Part shown: piece after piece, positions 17,546 to 28,897 of the stretch
Layout of the letters: each line of letters begins with the position of its first letter
Numbering within the stretch: the first letter of the stretch is position 1
DNA from: a virus
Taxonomy: Duplodnaviria > Heunggongvirae > Uroviricota > Caudoviricetes
Length of the DNA stretch: 38,527 bases
Reading direction: 5' to 3' (one strand)
IMG/VR virus record: IMGVR_UViG_2563366883_000008
Notes under the pieces: model-generated
The model's input: only the letters and a program-made list of their open reading frames with translations
Databases searched by the model: none
What the model was told of the DNA's origin: nothing
Translations under genes and position numbers: made by a program

Positions 17546-17961
17546 ATGAAGCCCTTCTGGTTGCGCCCGAATACCGCCGCATCAGACTGAACCTGTGGTA
17601 AATCCCCGGATTCAGGGGCCGCACCGTTCGTATCCACACCGACCGGCACATTGCCGTTCATGACATCTTTCAGCCAGGCCAGCGCTTCGCGGTAACGGTC
17701 ACGCGCCTGATCGGAGGCTCTCTGATCGCACAGGTAATAAAAGGCAATCGCGCAACAGTGCTGAACAAGAACTGCCGGAATAACCTCCAGCGGCAGCGTG
17801 TAACGGGCGGACAGATAGCTGTCGATAAGGGCTGACGCATCTGTCAGCGCCCGGTTCAGCTTGCGCGTGTCCGGCTCATCCGAACGGGGCACTGCCAGTA
17901 ACGGCCTGAGCAAATCCTCGCGGTAACGCGCCCGCATATCGGTTTCAGTGGCGTAATTCAT
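17542..17961 (-). CDS. Head completion/connector protein (Mu gp36-like), 139 aa
   Basis: Position after the major head gene region. Confidence 0.55.
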   Translation of the reverse strand: MNYATETDMRARYREDLLRPLLAVPRSDEPDTRKLNRALTDASALIDSYLSARYTLPLEVIPAVLVQHCCAIAFYYLCDQRASDQARDRYREALAWLKDVMNGNVPVGVDTNGAAPESGDLPQVQSDAAVFGRNQKGFI

Positions 17962-18438: not shown

Positions 18439-19386
18439 TTACAGATAATCCGCGACAACCAGCTCCAGCTTGCCCTTCATCTCGTTAGAGACGGTTGCGT
18501 TTCCGTCTGCGAACAGTTCACGCTCCAGCAGCTGCACCGCCTGTTTTTCCAGCGAGGTGGGGACAACAATATGGGTGGGTTTGATGCCGAGTTTGCGGCC
18601 ACCGTCAGCGGTAAATTCGCGCATGGCTGACCAGCCGTGCCACAGTGCATCCAGCGTCAGCGGTGACTGCATCATGTAGGCCATCTGCCAGAAGCCGTAG
18701 CCCACATTGCGACGGGCGGAAGCACCGAACACAAATTCGTTATCGGTGAATGCGCGACCTTCATCGACTTTGGTCTGGGCAACCAGTTCAGCCTTACGGC
18801 GATCCTGATAAATCAGCGGTTTGATTGCGCGTGAACAGTCGAGCAGATACCAGGCAGGACCGCTGTAATCCGCCTGTGCACCGACAGAACCGGTTTTTGC
18901 CACAAACATATTGCTGACCATCTGCGCATCCCCGGAGCCATCAACTTTGGGGTAAACAGGATGTTCGGTATCAAAGAAGTTCTGGCCGTCATAGCAGGCC
19001 GCATTAATCCCGTCACGAAGAGCAGCAAAGACCAGTTCATCCGGTTGTGCCGCAGCAGCGCGCCCCATCTCCTGGAACAACGGGGAATAAATACCGAGGT
19101 TATCGTCTTCGAAGTCATCGCGGTTAATGGCGACGGTGCCTTCAAAGGTTTTGTTCACGATGGCATAGCCATAGGCCTTCATCTTCTCGATGACGCGGGA
19201 GCCGATCCACTCACGGAACTGCGGGAACTGCCCCAGCCAGCCGTAGGTGTTGGATTTCGAGGTGGAGGGCACGGTCATCGCAATTTTTTTGTACTGCGAC
19301 GGGGCCATGGACATCCCGGCCTGAAAATCAGAACGGTAGCCCGTCATCAGGGCGGTGATCATCGCCGGTGTAATCGGGGTAGGCAT
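18439..19386 (-). CDS. Major head (capsid) protein (Mu T-like), 315 aa
   Basis: Size and position after the protease/scaffold gene. Confidence 0.8.
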   Translation of the reverse strand: MPTPITPAMITALMTGYRSDFQAGMSMAPSQYKKIAMTVPSTSKSNTYGWLGQFPQFREWIGSRVIEKMKAYGYAIVNKTFEGTVAINRDDFEDDNLGIYSPLFQEMGRAAAAQPDELVFAALRDGINAACYDGQNFFDTEHPVYPKVDGSGDAQMVSNMFVAKTGSVGAQADYSGPAWYLLDCSRAIKPLIYQDRRKAELVAQTKVDEGRAFTDNEFVFGASARRNVGYGFWQMAYMMQSPLTLDALWHGWSAMREFTADGGRKLGIKPTHIVVPTSLEKQAVQLLERELFADGNATVSNEMKGKLELVVADYL

Positions 19387-20510
19387 TATTGCATTTCCTC
19401 TTTCATTTTCAGGAATTCGGCTTCGGTTTTACCCAGAAGATGGGCGGCGGCGATATCTTCAGCCGACAGCGAGGCGGTGGCGGTCTTTTTATCCGGCACG
19501 GTCACGGTGTCGGTCTGAAGGCCGGTCAGGGCTGCAACCGGCTGTCGGGCGTCAAGCTGTGCAGAAAGTGCAGTAACACCAATCTGCCCACCCAGCTGTT
19601 CCAGATAGCCGCGTTCGCTTTTGAAGATGCGCCCTTCGGACTCGGCCTTGTCCAGCACCTGCTCCAGCGTGGTGCTGCCGTGCTGTGCTGACAGCGCAAC
19701 GTATTCGGTACGCAGGGCGTTATACGTTTCAATGGGCACATATTTCGTCAGATCAATACTGCCGCCAGCCGGTGTACCTTTTGCGGTTTCCAGCTCTGCC
19801 GACAGACTGGCGACCTGTGTTTTCAGGTTGTCGTGTGCATCCGCACGGGTTTTGATCCCGGTGAGGGCAGACAGCGCCGCCGTGCCCAGCTCCGGCGTAA
19901 ATTCGTCACCGTCAGCCACGGTCAGACCGAGCGCCGTCAGCAACTGGCGTAATTGCTCATTCATGGAGGTATCCTTTAAAGGAGGGTTTAAGGCGTTATA
20001 AAGGTCATCCGCCGACAGCGCGGCGACAGGATTCATGCCGGTCAGACCGGGGTCACCGGTAATAGCCAGCATCCGAAGTTCGACAGGTTCGCCGGTGTTC
20101 TCGTCATAGCCAATCACCGGTGAAAACCAGGGGAATTCGTTATTACGCAGATGTTCAAGGGCCGGAGGGTTCCACTTCGGGCGCACCTCGAAGCCACGCT
20201 CTTCACTGAAGCGGAAGTTTTCCGGTGAAGCCGTCACAAAACCGGCAGCCGGTGCCTGATGCCCCTTAATCAGGGTCTGGTGGTTGTAGTCAATTTTGAC
20301 CGGCTGATTGAGCGCCACAACCCGGGATACCATGCGCTCAACGGTCGCACGGTTAATCAGCCAGCCTTCAGCCGGTTTTTCCGGGCGACCGTCACGGGCC
20401 TTTACCCGACCGGCTGGCATGATCTGACACCAGTCACCGTCCCCGTCTGCGGACAGGCTGATGGCATTCAGAATGGCATAAGCAAGTTTGGGCGTGTTTT
20501 TCGTCTTCAT
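19386..20510 (-). CDS. Head protease/scaffold protein (Mu I-like), 374 aa
   Basis: Position between G and the major head gene; Ala-rich C-terminal half consistent with a scaffold domain. Confidence 0.75.
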   Translation of the reverse strand: MKTKNTPKLAYAILNAISLSADGDGDWCQIMPAGRVKARDGRPEKPAEGWLINRATVERMVSRVVALNQPVKIDYNHQTLIKGHQAPAAGFVTASPENFRFSEERGFEVRPKWNPPALEHLRNNEFPWFSPVIGYDENTGEPVELRMLAITGDPGLTGMNPVAALSADDLYNALNPPLKDTSMNEQLRQLLTALGLTVADGDEFTPELGTAALSALTGIKTRADAHDNLKTQVASLSAELETAKGTPAGGSIDLTKYVPIETYNALRTEYVALSAQHGSTTLEQVLDKAESEGRIFKSERGYLEQLGGQIGVTALSAQLDARQPVAALTGLQTDTVTVPDKKTATASLSAEDIAAAHLLGKTEAEFLKMKEEMQ

Positions 20511-20686
20511 TCCGGCAGCATAAGCCGGGAATTTTCAGGGCGGGTTTTGCGGGATTTCAGGAAGTGCTTCCAGGGGAAAAATACAAAGGCGCTTCACGCA
20601 GATTTTAAAGCCCGTTAAATACAGGTTAGAAAATCACGACACGCGCCTGAAGGGGGTAAGGTAATGCATTTGCATACCTTAAACAA

Positions 20687-21160
20687 TTAAGGCGTTTCTG
20701 TGGCCTTTTTAAAGCGTTTTCTGATTTCGGCCATGATCTCCTGCTCTGCCACCTGATCAAAGCCCATATACGGACGTGCACCAATGGCCGCCGGTCCAGG
20801 CGGCATACCTGGCAGGCCACCCCACTGATGAATGGCCGCATAAGGCTCATTTGATCCAATCAGCGCCCAGGTATCGCCATAATCCGTGGTCAGGCGTCGG
20901 GCCAGATCGCCGTTCAGCGTCAGGATTTTGCCGGGCATGTATCCCTTACGGGTACGCCACTTGCGGTAAGGATCTGACCAGTCATGCCAGCGTTCGCCGT
21001 CCGGCTCTTTTTCCTGTTCAAACGCCATTTCTGAGGATGACAGAAGGCTGGACGCCACACTGCGGGCCAGGTCTTTTCCACCACCCACAAACTGAAGCCG
21101 GGCAAAGACCCGCTGGAGACGCGCAACGTCCACCACCACGGCTGCATCGATGGATGACAT
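20687..21160 (-). CDS. Virion morphogenesis protein (Mu G-like), 157 aa
   Basis: Size (Mu G is about 156 aa) and position after F. Confidence 0.7.
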   Translation of the reverse strand: MSSIDAAVVVDVARLQRVFARLQFVGGGKDLARSVASSLLSSSEMAFEQEKEPDGERWHDWSDPYRKWRTRKGYMPGKILTLNGDLARRLTTDYGDTWALIGSNEPYAAIHQWGGLPGMPPGPAAIGARPYMGFDQVAEQEIMAEIRKRFKKATETP

Positions 21161-21198
21161 GTTGCCTCCTTAAAACTATCTGATTAAAATAAATACAG

Positions 21199-21278
21199 GC
21201 CGGTGTACTCTTAACTGGTAAAGCGGCATAAACCCTCAGGGGTCATATGTTTATGCGGGTTCGACCCCCGTCACCGGC
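21199..21278. other. Structured GC-rich element in the F-G intergenic gap (nested stems, tRNA-like acceptor/T-arm geometry)
   Basis: gccggtg (21199-21205) pairs with caccggc (21272-21278); internal gcataaac/gtttatgc stem; gcggg-TTCGACC-cccgt hairpin; a U-rich tract follows on the minus strand before the G RBS. Confidence 0.3.
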
Positions 21279-22604
21279 TTACAATTTACCTTCCAGTAGT
21301 TCCAGCTTTCCGCCCTCTATTGCTTTTTCAATATCAAATTTATTTACCCGGTAAGCATTAATTACCACATCCAGCTTATCCGGCTGGCGCTTCACACCAT
21401 AAGGCGCATTGACGGCAATCTTTGCCGTTCCGTCACGGGTTTCAGTGATGTAAAGCAGGTTCTGGTGGACATTATCCCACAGCACGGCATCGGGGGCGGC
21501 CAGCATTGCCGGTAATCGCCCGAAATCCTCCGGCGTCAGGGCAATGCCGTCATTCTGATGTTTCACGCTGTCCGCATGGAGCACATTTTTACCGCTCATC
21601 GCCAGCAGGCGGGCCGGTGGCGTTCCCGTCCGGCTTTCCACCGCCTGCGCAATACTTTCGGTCATAAAGCCCAGCGTGCGGATATCGTTACCGCCTCGCC
21701 GGGTTTTCATGATGTTTTTTGCCCAGATGCGGAACGCCAGCTGCCGCTCCGGGCTGTTGTTCATCTCCTGAACCACCATTTCCCGTAACGCCGGGCTTTT
21801 CACCTCGATCAGTTTACGGATCAGCGCCTGGTCTGTGCCGAACGCCGCCGAACCGGGGTTATATGACCAGCCCACATCCGGTGTCATGGTTCTGGTGCCA
21901 TCTGAATATGTGGTCACCGGCATTTCTCTGACTTCCCCGGTCTGCTTATCCACGCCAGCCTCAACATTGCGGGTGGAGAGATGATCCTGACCGGATGAAA
22001 CAGAGAGTCCCATTGCATCCAGACGGGCCTGAGACAATGGCCGGACACGGCAGCGACAGTTCCAGCCATTGGGCGGGTAGTGTGTATTCCAGAACGGATC
22101 GTCATAGCGGAATACCAGCCCGTTAAGGGCGGAATGCGCCGGGCGGGTGCGGCTGTCCATCACCGCCACATACTGCCAGAACGGATGCGTGTCCGTGTTG
22201 TTCATCATCTGCGTGTAACGCCCGGCATTGTAAGCCACGCGGGTGTTCACGTTGTAAATCAGCGCCAGACGACGGGGACTGCCCAGTTGCACTTCTTCCG
22301 CGTTCCCTGCGCTGTCCACCACAATCTGCTTTCCCCACCATCCCAGCTTTTGCAGGCGGGGTGTCAGCGTGCGGATAAATGCTTTCTGTGAAATCCCCTC
22401 ATCAACAGCACGCTGCACTTCCGCCTGTAGTGTGGTCAGTACGTCCAGGCGTGCCACTTTTGCCGCCGTGAATGAACGGGCATGAACATCCGCGTCTGTT
22501 TCGAACCAGTTCCAGCTGATATGCACCCCTTTGGCGCGGAAGTATGCCACCGCCTCTTTTGAGGGAAGGGTGGCGGCATAACCTAAATCAATCCCCTGAG
22601 CCAT
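21279..22604 (-). CDS. Head morphogenesis protein (Mu F-like), 441 aa
   Basis: Size and position after the portal gene. Confidence 0.8.
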   Translation of the reverse strand: MAQGIDLGYAATLPSKEAVAYFRAKGVHISWNWFETDADVHARSFTAAKVARLDVLTTLQAEVQRAVDEGISQKAFIRTLTPRLQKLGWWGKQIVVDSAGNAEEVQLGSPRRLALIYNVNTRVAYNAGRYTQMMNNTDTHPFWQYVAVMDSRTRPAHSALNGLVFRYDDPFWNTHYPPNGWNCRCRVRPLSQARLDAMGLSVSSGQDHLSTRNVEAGVDKQTGEVREMPVTTYSDGTRTMTPDVGWSYNPGSAAFGTDQALIRKLIEVKSPALREMVVQEMNNSPERQLAFRIWAKNIMKTRRGGNDIRTLGFMTESIAQAVESRTGTPPARLLAMSGKNVLHADSVKHQNDGIALTPEDFGRLPAMLAAPDAVLWDNVHQNLLYITETRDGTAKIAVNAPYGVKRQPDKLDVVINAYRVNKFDIEKAIEGGKLELLEGKL

Positions 22605-24186
22605 CCAGCATCCCCTTCATTTCCGCAGCAAACATGGCATCACTGAGCAGCGTCATCAGGCGGGAATCATCCATTTCACGGTAAAGGGCGGGCAGGTCTG
22701 CCAGTGCCTCCGCCAGCCCCCGCGTTCTGATGGCATCAATGACCGGCTCCAGTACCGGGTCGATGGCCTCCTGTAACCGGCGGGCAGGCACCGCATCCCC
22801 CATGTCGTCCAGTTCATCACGGGGGCTGCTTTTCGCTTCCGGCAGTCTGGCAGCCAGCGCTGTCTGCTCTGTCTTCTCCTGTTTTTCCGGTGGCATCTCT
22901 TTGTCTGTCTGAGCAGGTTCATTGCCACTCTGACGGACACGGAAGATGGCTTCACCGGGCGTGGGCTGCGGAATACCGGTCTGCTCCCTTATCCAGGGAT
23001 CAGAAATATCCATCCCCGTACTGAGCTGCATCACCGCACTGGTGATTTTGGTGATATCCCCCGGCTCTTTTGTCTGGAAACAGATACGCGGCAGGCGACG
23101 GATATCAATGGCGTGGGCGGTGTTCAGGGCATACAGCGGATACACCAGATCGCGGTTCAGCGTGGCGGCCAGCTGGCGTAAATCAGAATCCCTGATTTCC
23201 CGGCGCACCTCGTTATGCACTTCACCCAGCGAGCGCGCGCCTTTGTCTCCGGCTTCCGTGGTCAGCGTGCCGCCGAGTATTGCTTTGGAGATGGAACGCT
23301 CCCCCCACGAAATCATGGTTTCAAACGGATCGGCCTGACCGTTCGCTGCCGCCTGAAACTCCAGCGACATCCCGGCCGGGATGATCCCGCCTGTACGTCG
23401 CCCGATATCCATCACCGCCCGCATCAGGGCACTTTTCTGCTCCGGTGTTGCCCCGGACGGGTATTTCCCGACCTTCATCGGCAGGCCGTACACCTCCAGA
23501 AATTCCGCCAGATCGCGCACGGAATAGTTTTTGAAAATGAACGGCCAGATAAGCGTTCTGACAAGCCCCGTCGCACCACCGTAGCCGGTGCGTGAACGCG
23601 ACTGATGCACTATCCAGCCAAAGGGCTGAAACGCCACCCCGGCATGGCTGCCGTCACGCAGTCGCAGTTCGCTCAAATCATCCGGGTTAAGGCAGAAATG
23701 CCCGCTGTCACGCCAGCGGATGGCGCGGATGATGTGCATTTTACCGAGCATCCCGTGCTCAATTTCCATGCAGGAATAGCCCTTCAGGATGGCATCCGTG
23801 GCGTCAAACAGCATGGCATCAAACCAGTCTGCGGAATGCAGATATTCGTCGAGCATTTCCGCGTCCTTTTTCTCATTCGCGCTGGCGTTCGGTGGCGGCT
23901 CAATGCTCCATGGCACCCCCTGAATGGCAAGACGTCGCTTGCCCAGCTCCGCAAAAAGGTGGGTGTCCTTTTCTTCAATGTCAGCCGCCAGATCGGACTG
24001 GGCAATCAGATCGCCACGTTCAGCCCCGCGAAGGCACTGCGCCGCCCGGTTCGGGGTGATACCCGAGGCGGGATGCTCAACATAACGGCTGGCAATCTGC
24101 GGAATATCCAGCGCGGTACTTTGCATCTCCGGGTCAAAGGAGAAAGGTTTTCCGTCAAGATCAATTATGCGTCCCACTACCAGCAC
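22588..24186 (-). CDS. Portal protein (Mu gp29/H-like), 532 aa
   Basis: Size and position directly after the large terminase gene. Confidence 0.8.
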   Translation of the reverse strand: MLVVGRIIDLDGKPFSFDPEMQSTALDIPQIASRYVEHPASGITPNRAAQCLRGAERGDLIAQSDLAADIEEKDTHLFAELGKRRLAIQGVPWSIEPPPNASANEKKDAEMLDEYLHSADWFDAMLFDATDAILKGYSCMEIEHGMLGKMHIIRAIRWRDSGHFCLNPDDLSELRLRDGSHAGVAFQPFGWIVHQSRSRTGYGGATGLVRTLIWPFIFKNYSVRDLAEFLEVYGLPMKVGKYPSGATPEQKSALMRAVMDIGRRTGGIIPAGMSLEFQAAANGQADPFETMISWGERSISKAILGGTLTTEAGDKGARSLGEVHNEVRREIRDSDLRQLAATLNRDLVYPLYALNTAHAIDIRRLPRICFQTKEPGDITKITSAVMQLSTGMDISDPWIREQTGIPQPTPGEAIFRVRQSGNEPAQTDKEMPPEKQEKTEQTALAARLPEAKSSPRDELDDMGDAVPARRLQEAIDPVLEPVIDAIRTRGLAEALADLPALYREMDDSRLMTLLSDAMFAAEMKGMLDGSGD

Positions 24187-28474: not shown

Positions 28475-28897
28475 TCAGAAAAGTGGCGGTTGCGTTCTTG
28501 CCAGATGCAGACGGCGCTGTTCGCGTATGACGGTATAAATCTGGGTTTCTGACATCCTGTAATGGCGGCGCAGGGTTTCAATTTTTTCGCCCTGGCTCCA
28601 GCGGGAAAAAATCTCATTATTGCGCAGTTCGGTGAAAAGGGATTCACCGACCGGGAGATAATAACCACGCCCGCCCATGTACCCGGCCTGTGCGGCCGCA
28701 ACTTTACGGGCAAGCATTCCTGCCTGAGCAGGTTCAATCCCCTGACGGTGCAGTTCAGCACTGATCACATCAACCAGGTCCCGCAGCGTGCCGGGCCAGT
28801 TCTTTTTCAGCTCATCATCAGGAATGTCATCCAGACGGTCAATCAGCGCGTGCAGCTGTTCGCTGTCACCAAACATGCTCATCTGTGTTTCAGCCAT
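28475..28897 (-). CDS. Mor/C-family transcriptional activator of middle/late genes, 140 aa
   Basis: C-terminal HTH region and QPPLF terminus resemble Mu Mor as I recall it; directly upstream of the lysis genes. Cannot say whether it is Mor or C. Confidence 0.75.
   Translation of the reverse strand: MAETQMSMFGDSEQLHALIDRLDDIPDDELKKNWPGTLRDLVDVISAELHRQGIEPAQAGMLARKVAAAQAGYMGGRGYYLPVGESLFTELRNNEIFSRWSQGEKIETLRRHYRMSETQIYTVIREQRRLHLARTQPPLF

What the first reader, a model, noticed from the sequence alone, without database searches (positions are those of the whole stretch)
21199..21278. Highly structured GC-rich element filling the F-G intergenic gap, with tRNA-like acceptor/T-arm geometry
The 80 nt immediately after the F stop can form a 7-bp closing stem (gccggtg/caccggc), an internal 8-bp stem (gcataaac/gtttatgc) and a gcggg-TTCGACC-cccgt hairpin resembling a tRNA T-arm. 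On the minus-strand late transcript the structure is followed by a U-rich run and then the G ribosome-binding site. It could be an attenuator between F and G, an RNase processing site, or a tRNA remnant. Mu F and G are close neighbours, so a structured 118-bp gap here is unexpected.
Basis: seen in the sequence. Interest (0 to 1): 0.45.

Follow-up and report, generated by a model that had tools for sequence, protein, structure and literature searches.

The report
Anticodon-less tRNA-like gene in Mu-like prophage
The gap between head genes F and G of this Mu-like E. coli prophage holds a small, conserved gene on the opposite strand. It encodes a tRNA-shaped RNA with no anticodon, which probably mimics tRNA rather than decoding, and its target is unknown.

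Summary
They belong to the + strand, antisense to the late genes. Window 21199-21279 (+) matches the Rfam tRNA model above its curated threshold (31.4 bits against 29). NCBI's pipeline labels the identical sequence 'tRNA-OTHER' in many E. coli O157 genomes.

It is neither a normal tRNA nor a decayed one. The anticodon loop is replaced by a hairpin capped with a tetraloop. No CCA is encoded, and the acceptor helix extends to 9 bp.

I collected 22 distinct relatives from Mu-like prophages, from 2-3-copy arrays in an 8.4-kb satellite-like island, and from two short metagenome contigs. The acceptor, D, T and basal anticodon stems keep pairing through compensatory changes. The distal anticodon arm differs completely between relatives.

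A sigma-70-like promoter lies just upstream, and its -10 hexamer TAAAAT is conserved. Phage Mu and one relative have no F-G gap, so this is an inserted ~105-bp transcription unit.

No terminator or attenuator signature was found on the late-gene strand.

I infer that the RNA acts in trans as a non-decoding tRNA mimic. This is not shown, and the partner is unknown. I found no published description.

The parts
21197..21280 (+). The tRNA-like RNA gene, positions -2 to 74 in tRNA numbering. It is a cloverleaf with a 9-bp acceptor-like helix and no anticodon loop, and no CCA is encoded.
   Evidence: Rfam RF00005 gives 31.4 bits, E = 5e-5, + strand. The family model R1 gives 87.6 bits and this is its only hit in the window. 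PGAP annotates 'tRNA-OTHER' at the identical sequence.
21197..21205 (+). 5' strand of the acceptor-like helix: A(-2), G(-1), then G1-G7. It pairs with 21272-21280.
   Evidence: Pairs 1-7 are 94.8% paired across 22 sequences, and four of them show changes on both sides. Pairs -1:73 and -2:74 are each formed in 18 of 22, with types GC/UA/GU/AU and AU/CG/UG.
21209..21224 (+). D arm: stem UCUU/AAGC, whose first pair is a U.C mismatch, and loop AACUGGUA with G18 G19. It is preceded by U8 A9 and an extra C at 21206-21208.
   Evidence: Most of the D arm, including the loop's A A and G G U A, and the preceding G-U-A-C (G7, U8, A9, extra C) are invariant in the alignment. Pair 13:22 covaries, UA to CG.
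21226..21250 (+). Elongated, anticodon-less arm. It reads GCAUA/UAUGU, a 1x2 internal loop, ACCC/GGGU, then tetraloop UCAG (21236-21239).
   Evidence: cmscan places 15 nt where the 7-nt anticodon loop belongs. The basal 3 bp covary, GCA/UGU against GUG/CAU, and are 95.5% paired. The distal part is unrelated in sequence and length among relatives.
21255..21271 (+). T arm: GCGGG - UUCGACC - CCCGU.
   Evidence: The stem is 99.1% paired, and two of its pairs show changes on both sides. The T loop is invariant or nearly so in the 22 aligned sequences.
21272..21280 (+). 3' strand of the acceptor-like helix (CACCGGC, U73, U74). U73 and U74 are also the first two bases of the F stop codon on the other strand.
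21162..21190 (+). Sigma-70-like promoter: TTGCCT (21162-21167), 17-bp spacer, TAAAAT (21185-21190). The predicted start is about 21197, the first paired base of the RNA.
   Evidence: Consensus scan. TAAAAT is present 7-9 nt upstream of the helix in all the Mu-like variants I examined except L043. The -10 majority fraction is 0.98, against 0.73 for the spacer. The -35 overlaps G's Shine-Dalgarno, so its conservation is ambiguous. No transcript data exist.
21158..21169 (-). G start codon (21158-21160) and its Shine-Dalgarno GGAGGCAA (21162-21169). This is the left boundary of the inserted unit.
   Evidence: Pfam Phage_tail_S, 1.8e-32.
21279..21281 (-). F stop codon TAA, the right boundary of the inserted unit. 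It overlaps positions 73 and 74 of the RNA.
   Evidence: Pfam Phage_Mu_F plus MuF_C.

Best explanation
The F-G gap of this Sp18-type Mu-like prophage is filled by a self-contained inserted transcription unit (a 'moron') on the strand opposite the late genes. It consists of a sigma-70-like promoter and, directly after it, a gene for an ~84-nt tRNA-shaped RNA.

Shown:
- The RNA keeps the parts that build the tRNA L-shape. These are the acceptor helix, U8/A14, a D loop with GG, the T stem and a UUCGACC T loop.
- Its anticodon loop is replaced by an elongated hairpin capped by a tetraloop.
- No CCA is encoded. Positions 73 and 74 pair with -1 and -2, giving a 9-bp helix.
- The scaffold is under purifying selection, shown by compensatory changes. 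The distal arm is freely replaced.
- The same RNA family occurs in 2-3-copy arrays behind a Mor/C-like activator gene in a small integrative satellite-like island.

Inferred:
- The RNA starts at about -2, so its 5' end is base-paired.
- It is trimmed at the 3' end back to the helix.
- It is neither aminoacylated nor used in decoding.
- It acts in trans as a tRNA mimic. It would engage a factor that recognises the tRNA elbow and acceptor, such as a tRNA-processing or modifying enzyme or a tRNA-targeting immune nuclease or toxin. It could act as a decoy, an inhibitor or a cofactor.

My confidence in the identity (an independent, selected, non-decoding tRNA-like gene) is about 0.85. For the trans-acting-mimic mechanism it is about 0.4. 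The specific partner is unknown.
For: - tRNA model hit on the + strand only, above the curated cut-off. The identical sequence is annotated tRNA-OTHER on that strand in RefSeq.
- Covariation in all four stems, against both shuffled and slid-partner controls.
- The anticodon loop is replaced by hairpins with UCAG, UCCG, UUCG, UCAA, UAAC, GUAC or GUAA tetraloops, or by 8-11-bp rods with 10-18-nt loops.
- The scaffold is 97% and the arm 91% identical in L038, where the flanking G and F coding DNA is 67% and 73% identical.
- The -10 hexamer is conserved. The predicted start coincides with the first paired base, -2 in type I and -3/-4 in type II, where the helix is longer.
- The unit is absent from Mu, where F and G overlap by 4 bp, and from L042, where no gap exists. 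The family model finds nothing in those loci.
- Arrays of 2-3 copies occur in an 8.4-kb island inserted in mdtP. A hairpin-plus-U-run that I read as an intrinsic terminator follows the array (read by eye; not scanned). This shows the RNA alone is the mobile functional unit.
Against: - There is no transcript evidence of any kind. The promoter, the RNA ends and expression itself are all predicted.
- No partner protein is identified. Mor/C was the only one of the seven island proteins I tested that has a homologue in the window (45% identity).
- The -35 hexamer overlaps G's Shine-Dalgarno, so its conservation is uninformative.
- No terminator follows the gene in the phage.
- Some class II copies carry a T-loop change, UUCGCCC (A58C), that should damage the tRNA elbow. 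The RNA is therefore dispensable for maintaining the prophage.
- A decoy would need high abundance, which is untested.
- Because the gene is antisense to the late operon, a cis or trans antisense action on the F-G junction of late mRNA would also fit its position.
Confidence: 0.6

Rival explanations
1. The RNA is an antisense regulator of the late mRNA. Made from the + strand, it pairs with the perfectly complementary F-G junction of the late transcript. The satellite copies would pair with a helper phage's late transcript. Pairing would trigger cleavage or change G translation. The tRNA shape would only provide stability and processing.
For: The gene is exactly antisense to the F-G junction. 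The satellite arrays carry scaffold types I and II, the two types found in the phages. This would let one satellite target several helper types. Satellite copy 1 is 90.5% identical to the window's element.
Against: Stability alone does not need invariant T-loop and D-loop tertiary nucleotides. The RNA is tightly folded, with little single-stranded sequence to nucleate pairing. It does not overlap G's Shine-Dalgarno or start codon. I found no complementarity between the arms and other parts of the held genomes above shuffled controls.
Confidence: 0.15
2. The structure acts in cis on the minus-strand late transcript as an attenuator, a terminator or an RNase processing site between F and G.
For: The complementary strand also folds, at -31.1 kcal/mol with z = -2.0. 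A U-rich run follows it before G's ribosome-binding site. Mirror images of tRNAs can be nuclease substrates; this is general knowledge and was not tested here.
Against: No terminator-like site lies in the gap. Both the tRNA model and the family model hit only the + strand. The U-run is the complement of the conserved + strand -10 region, and it is not U-rich in L043. The same element occurs in arrays in a satellite-like island with no late genes opposite it. Mu and L042 manage without any F-G spacer.
Confidence: 0.08
3. It is a decaying tRNA pseudogene: a captured tRNA gene that lost its anticodon loop and now has no function.
For: ARAGORN does not call it. PGAP cannot assign an isotype. Some copies have T-loop mutations and are not annotated.
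Against: Compensatory changes maintain every stem. The scaffold is far more conserved than the flanking coding DNA. Stable UNCG/GNRA-type caps recur on unrelated arms. The promoter -10 is conserved. Multiple copies are retained in arrays on a second kind of mobile element.
Confidence: 0.05
4. It is a chargeable, non-ribosomal tRNA. After RNase P cleavage and CCA addition, the RNA would be aminoacylated by a synthetase that ignores the anticodon. HisRS, acting through G-1:C73, is one candidate. The RNA would then donate or sequester an amino acid.
For: G-1:C73 is the commonest -1:73 combination, in 10 of 22 distinct sequences. From my own knowledge, this pair is the main identity element for E. 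coli HisRS. One distant metagenomic relative (L076) encodes A73-CCA.
Against: The -1:73 pair varies: G.U in the window and U:A in the arrays. No CCA is encoded in any E. coli member. Positions 73 and 74 are paired, and the predicted start leaves no leader for RNase P.
Confidence: 0.07

Closest known systems
Canonical bacterial and phage tRNA genes (Rfam RF00005)
   Same: The cloverleaf has a 7-bp acceptor core, U8, A14, G18G19, a 5-bp T stem and a UUCGANN T loop. It scores above the Rfam gathering threshold. Like some T4 tRNA genes (my own knowledge), it does not encode CCA.
   Different: It has no 7-nt anticodon loop, no U33 and no anticodon. There is an extra base after A9. Positions -1:73 and -2:74 are paired. 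ARAGORN rejects it and PGAP cannot name an isotype.
Non-decoding 'pseudo-tRNAs' or 'tRNA-Other' (for example the Bacillus cereus tRNA-Other) and the unexplained small stable RNAs of the T4 tRNA cluster. This comparison rests on my own knowledge.
   Same: These are tRNA-shaped transcripts that are maintained but not used as ordinary decoders. Some are carried by phages.
   Different: As far as I know, those retain an anticodon-type loop or have no defined family architecture. This family has a capped, interchangeable arm and a closed 9-11-bp acceptor helix, and it is shared between transposable phages and a satellite-like island.
Bacterial Y-RNA-like YrlA (a tRNA-mimicking domain bound to Rsr/Ro60; PMC4201824)
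   Same: A non-coding RNA that reproduces the tRNA elbow (D and T loops) without decoding. YrlA-like RNAs also occur in phages.
   Different: In YrlA the RNA ends lie at the Ro-binding helix and the acceptor side is closed. Here the ends lie at the acceptor helix. I found no Rfam YrlA hit and no rsr gene nearby.
P1/P7 C4 and P4 CI immunity RNAs. This comparison rests on my own knowledge: they are RNase P-processed phage or satellite RNAs whose variable loops pair with targets.
   Same: These are small stable RNAs of temperate phages and satellites. They have a tRNA-like acceptor helix and variable loops that set specificity.
   Different: No Rfam C4 hit. I found no complementary target sites above chance. 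The window's arm ends in a 4-nt loop with nothing to pair. The D and T elbows are fully tRNA-like, unlike C4 and CI.
Phage morons (accessory transcription units inserted between late genes)
   Same: The unit is inserted precisely between F's stop codon and G's Shine-Dalgarno. It has its own promoter, and Mu and some relatives lack it.
   Different: The cargo is an RNA rather than a protein. It is antisense to the operon, and I found no terminator of its own.

Membership tests
tRNA (RF00005) | Score at or above the curated Rfam gathering threshold (29 bits) | tested here: met
   31.4 bits, E = 5e-5, at 21199-21279 on the + strand in the sensitive local scan. The hit was lost to the speed filters in the whole-window gathering scan.
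tRNA (RF00005) | Acceptor, D and T stems supported by covariation, plus conserved tertiary nucleotides (U8, A14, G18G19, T-loop UUCRA) | tested here: met
   Stems; invariant columns.
tRNA (RF00005) | A 5-bp anticodon stem closing a 7-nt loop with U33 and an anticodon | tested here: not met
   15 nt replace the loop and fold into a further helix with a tetraloop. Relatives have unrelated hairpins of 9-26 nt.
tRNA (RF00005) | A single-stranded discriminator plus CCA 3' end, either encoded or added | tested here: inconclusive
   CCA is not encoded, and positions 73/74 pair with -1/-2 in 18 of 22 sequences. Post-transcriptional addition cannot be tested here.
tRNA (RF00005) | Called by a dedicated tRNA finder with an isotype | tested here: not met
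   ARAGORN finds no genes in the window or in eight relatives. PGAP labels it tRNA-OTHER.
Intrinsic terminator or attenuator on the late (-) strand | A simple GC-rich hairpin immediately followed by a U tract | tested here: not met
   The scan of 20600-21900 finds no such site in the gap. The only hit lies inside G, at 21112-21099. In vivo termination was not testable.
tmRNA tRNA-like domain | A G3:U70 alanine identity pair, no D stem, and an adjoining tag reading frame and pseudoknots | tested here: not met
   Position 3:70 is C-G or U-A. A D stem is present. The RNA is only about 84 nt. ARAGORN finds no tmRNA.
YrlA / bacterial Y RNA | A Ro-binding helix bearing the RNA ends, and an Rfam family match | tested here: not met
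   No such match at E up to 10 in the local scan. The ends lie at the acceptor helix.
C4 / CI antisense immunity RNAs | An Rfam C4 match, and loops complementary to target sites in the same element | tested here: not met
   No Rfam match. The longest complementarities are 8-11 nt, which is not above shuffled arms. Very short (6-8 nt) targets could not be assessed.
Phage moron | An insertion between conserved neighbours, absent from relatives, with its own promoter | tested here: met
   Mu F and G overlap. L042 has no gap. Promoter activity itself was not testable.

The most novel reading that the evidence does not exclude
These RNAs may form an undescribed class of anticodon-less tRNA mimics carried by mobile elements. 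They would have a conserved L-shaped scaffold and a swappable arm. Transposable phages and their putative satellites would deploy them in the conflict over tRNAs. One possibility is a decoy or inhibitor for immune nucleases or toxins that recognise tRNA shape. Another is an RNA cofactor that the satellite shares with or steals from its helper.
Probability: 0.25. Interest if true: 0.8.

Novelty: new variant of a known kind. Interest (0 to 1): 0.55.

Why it matters
Many recently described antiphage systems kill by cutting or modifying tRNAs. Examples are PARIS, P2 OLD, Septu/PtuAB, certain retrons, PrrC and CapRel. Phages are known to answer with replacement tRNAs (for example PMC12445682). An RNA that keeps everything that makes a tRNA recognisable except the decoding loop would be a different kind of player in that conflict.

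This one is conserved in about 4% of complete E. coli genomes (229 of 5,426), including the O157:H7 Sakai prophage Sp18. It is duplicated in arrays on a satellite-like island.

It also matters for annotation. These loci are currently labelled 'tRNA-OTHER' or left unannotated.

Finally, the arm tolerates any insert, so it is a ready-made natural 'tRNA scaffold'. That makes tagging and pull-down experiments straightforward.

Tried and rejected
- Ordinary tRNA. ARAGORN found nothing in the window or in eight relatives, and there is no anticodon loop.
- Other Rfam families. Nothing reached the gathering threshold in the whole window. Only tRNA appeared in the sensitive local scan up to E = 10.
- Terminator on either strand. 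None lies in the gap.
- Attachment-site role for the tRNA-like copies in the island. The island is bounded by a CATCCCGGG repeat in mdtP, and the array lies about 230 bp inside it. Rejected.
- Arm as an antisense guide. The longest complementarity of seven arms to the window, the island or their own loci was 8-11 nt, no better than shuffled arms. An earlier cruder k-mer search was uninformative.
- Resemblance of AUAAACC to the type I-E crRNA handle, and of one arm to a type I-F repeat hairpin. I considered both by eye. The first is explained by complementarity to the conserved GUUUAU, and neither is general across arms. Dropped.
- P2-OLD 'CNG' motif at positions 28-30 and 40-42 (PMC12445682). 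It is absent from the conserved basal stem. CAG/CUG pairs in some distal arms are expected by chance. Not pursued.
- Histidine identity through G-1:C73. The pair is not conserved across the family.
- Looking for a Mor/C box upstream of the arrays. I could not obtain the binding-site sequence from the paper, so this is unresolved.
- Scan of one genome per species. It gave only an unrelated Planctomycetota tRNA.
- Literature searches. None of them turned up a description of this RNA.

Full report
**Context.** The window is a Mu-like prophage with its late genes on the minus strand. Pfam identifies portal (22588-24186), F (21279-22604; Phage_Mu_F plus MuF_C), G (20687-21160; Phage_tail_S), protease I (19386-20510) and major head protein T (18439-19386). 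The region is 100% identical to many E. coli O157:H7 chromosomes, including prophage Sp18 of strain Sakai. F and G are separated by 118 bp (21161-21278).

**The observation.** Single-sequence folding is unremarkable, with z = -1.8 on the + strand and -2.0 on the - strand. The tRNA resemblance, however, is strand-specific and formal.
- In a sensitive local scan the Rfam tRNA model matches 21199-21279 on the + strand at 31.4 bits. The curated threshold is 29 and E = 5e-5. All 71 model positions align, and 15 nt sit where the 7-nt anticodon loop belongs.
- The whole-window gathering scan misses the element, and ARAGORN rejects it.
- RefSeq's PGAP pipeline annotates the identical sequence as 'tRNA-OTHER' on this strand in most matching genomes. 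The Sakai record does not annotate it.

**Anatomy in the window.**
- Acceptor: G1-G7 (21199-21205) pairs with 21272-21278. G(-1).U73 and A(-2)-U74 add two pairs, giving a 9-bp helix.
- Connector: U8, A9 and an extra C.
- D arm: 21209-21224, with loop AACUGGUA.
- Anticodon arm: stem GCAUA/UAUGU, a 1x2 internal loop, ACCC/GGGU, then tetraloop UCAG (21226-21250).
- Variable region: UUAU.
- T arm: GCGGG-UUCGACC-CCCGU (21255-21271).
- No CCA is encoded.
- U73 and U74 are the first two bases of F's stop codon on the other strand.

The cloverleaf lies 2 kcal/mol above the MFE structure, at -27.5 against -29.5 kcal/mol.

**Transcription signals.** A sigma-70-like promoter, TTGCCT-17-TAAAAT (21162-21190), lies on the + strand. 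A start 7 nt after the -10 would fall at 21197, the first paired base. The -35 overlaps G's Shine-Dalgarno (GGAGGCAA on the minus strand), so its conservation is ambiguous. The -10 is more telling. TAAAAT is present 7-9 nt upstream of the helix in all the Mu-like variants I examined except L043. Its majority fraction is 0.98, against 0.73 for the spacer. In type II relatives the helix extends to -3/-4, and the predicted start moves with it. No terminator follows the gene on the + strand within about 600 nt, and no terminator-like site lies in the gap on either strand.

**Relatives.** Pattern scans and a search with the G protein recovered the element at the F-G junction of many Mu-like prophages. 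These came from IMG/VR and metagenome contigs, and their G proteins are 62-99% identical to the window's. In complete E. coli genomes the locus occurs in 229 of 5,426.
- Mu itself has no gap: F and G overlap by 4 bp.
- Relative L042 (G 64% identical) runs from the F stop directly into G's Shine-Dalgarno.
- A family covariance model finds one copy in the window (87.6 bits). It finds none in Mu, L042, L044 or L045.

The promoter plus RNA is therefore a ~105-bp insertion between F's stop and G's ribosome-binding site. That is the signature of a moron.

**Selection.** I aligned 22 distinct family members. The cloverleaf is 88.7% paired, against 78.0% in column shuffles. The covariation score is 0.408 against 0.211, and no shuffle of 500 reached it. 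Slid-partner controls gave 0.05-0.11.
- Acceptor pairs change on both sides. Examples are GCCGGUG/CACCGGC, GUCAGUG/CACUGAC, GUUGAUG/CAUUAAC, GCCGAUG/CAUCGGC and GCUGGUG/CACCAGC.
- The T stem, the D stem and the basal three pairs of the anticodon stem (GCA/UGU against GUG/CAU) do the same.
- Pairs -1:73 and -2:74 are each formed in 18 of 22 sequences, with several pair types.
- In L038 the flanking G and F coding DNA is only 67% and 73% identical to the window. Its scaffold is 97% and its arm 91% identical.
- In phages whose G is 91-95% identical, the element and F belong to another lineage (F 61%). This points to a recombination junction at G's start.

The distal arm behaves quite differently. 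It is unrelated in sequence and length between otherwise near-identical scaffolds, but it always folds. Short forms end in UCAG, UCCG, UUCG, UCAA, UAAC, GUAC or GUAA tetraloops. Long forms are 8-11-bp rods with 10-18-nt loops. Two scaffold types exist, I and II. Some type II copies carry T-loop changes: UUCAACC, and UUCGCCC with A58C. The latter should damage the elbow, and PGAP does not annotate those copies.

**A second context.** In E. coli STEC17-183, three tandem family members follow a Mor-family gene. They are types I-short, I-long and II. They lie at the end of an 8.4-kb island inserted in mdtP, which encodes an integrase, an HTH regulator, Ash, Icd-like proteins, a RepA helicase, SSB, PerC and Mor.
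- About 170 nt after the array there is a hairpin followed by a U-run. I read this by eye as an intrinsic terminator and did not scan it.
- Arrays of two or three copies occur in the same kind of island in metagenome contigs.
- The island's Mor is 45% identical to the window's C-like late activator at 28505-28897. It was the only one of the seven island proteins I tested that has a homologue in the window.
- The island therefore looks like a satellite of Mu-like phages. That is an inference.

This context shows that the RNA alone, without F or G, is the mobile unit. Two short metagenome contigs (L064 and L076) carry more distant members, and L076 encodes A73-CCA.

**Interpretation.** Three points are shown. 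It is a selected gene for a non-decoding tRNA-shaped RNA. It lies antisense to the late operon. It sits in an inserted unit. Three further points are inferred. It is transcribed from its own promoter with a paired 5' end. It is not charged. It acts in trans through the tRNA elbow and acceptor surface on some tRNA-binding factor.

The rivals are as follows.
- Antisense action on the F-G junction of late mRNA, from the phage's own copy or a satellite's. This is possible, but it does not explain the invariant tertiary nucleotides.
I found no signature for it, and the element's presence in satellites argues against it.
- Pseudogene. Refuted by covariation and by the conservation of the scaffold relative to its flanks.
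- A chargeable non-ribosomal tRNA. There is no CCA, and -1:73 is variable.

**Negative results.** I found no complementary targets for the arms. The copies play no attachment-site role. The Rfam scans of the window and the gap returned no significant match to any family other than tRNA. None of my literature searches turned up a description of this RNA.

**Verdict.** It is a functional gene, not a remnant or an attenuator. It is a new variant of a known kind, the tRNA-like non-coding RNAs of mobile elements. It has an unusual architecture and a suggestive phage-satellite distribution, but no demonstrated function.

Noticed in passing
L083 23440-31870 (E. coli STEC17-183, NZ_CP075652.1 about 2238440-2246870): An 8.4-kb integrative island lies inside mdtP. 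It encodes an integrase, an HTH regulator, Ash, two Icd-like proteins, DUF4222, a RepA helicase, SSB, PerC and a Mor/C-like activator, but no structural genes. Its Mor is 45% identical to the window's C-like activator at 28505-28897. It looks like a satellite of Mu-like phages, and my searches turned up no description of one.
   Followed up: partly
window 21161 (G start) as a recombination junction: In many relatives G's first ~160 bases are 91-95% identical to the window. The promoter, RNA and F 3' end are only 53%, 76-83% and 61% identical. This is a sharp mosaic boundary at the G start codon.
   Followed up: partly
L016, L017, L019, L021, L029, L031, L033, L035 (F-G gap): These type II copies carry single T-loop substitutions. 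Two have UUCAACC. Six have UUCGCCC (A58C), which should break the T54-A58 pair. Similar E. coli copies (H23-H31, not inspected) are not annotated as tRNA-OTHER. They may be decaying alleles.
   Followed up: partly
L064 753-834 and 119-198 (- strand); L076 639-719 (- strand): These short metagenome contigs carry distant family members. L064 has two copies about 555 nt apart. L076 has an A1.C72 mismatch and an encoded A73-CCA 3' end, unlike all E. coli members. The host organisms are unknown.
   Followed up: no
window 20511-20686: A 176-bp non-coding gap lies between G and I. It is at the position where phage Mu has its strong gyrase site (annotated at Mu 17879-17880) and, from my own knowledge, the late promoter P_I. 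I did not analyse it.
   Followed up: no
window 21199-21279: The default whole-window Rfam gathering scan returns nothing. The same element scores above the tRNA gathering threshold when a 251-base stretch is scanned. Speed filters can hide this kind of non-canonical tRNA.
   Followed up: yes
L003 4850-4930: A run of GTGAAA-type direct repeats (gtgaaagaaggtgaaagaaggtga...gtgaaattaagcgaaatcacgtgaaatcaggtgaaata) lies between the island's Mor gene and the tRNA-like array. These could be iterons or activator-binding sites.
   Followed up: no
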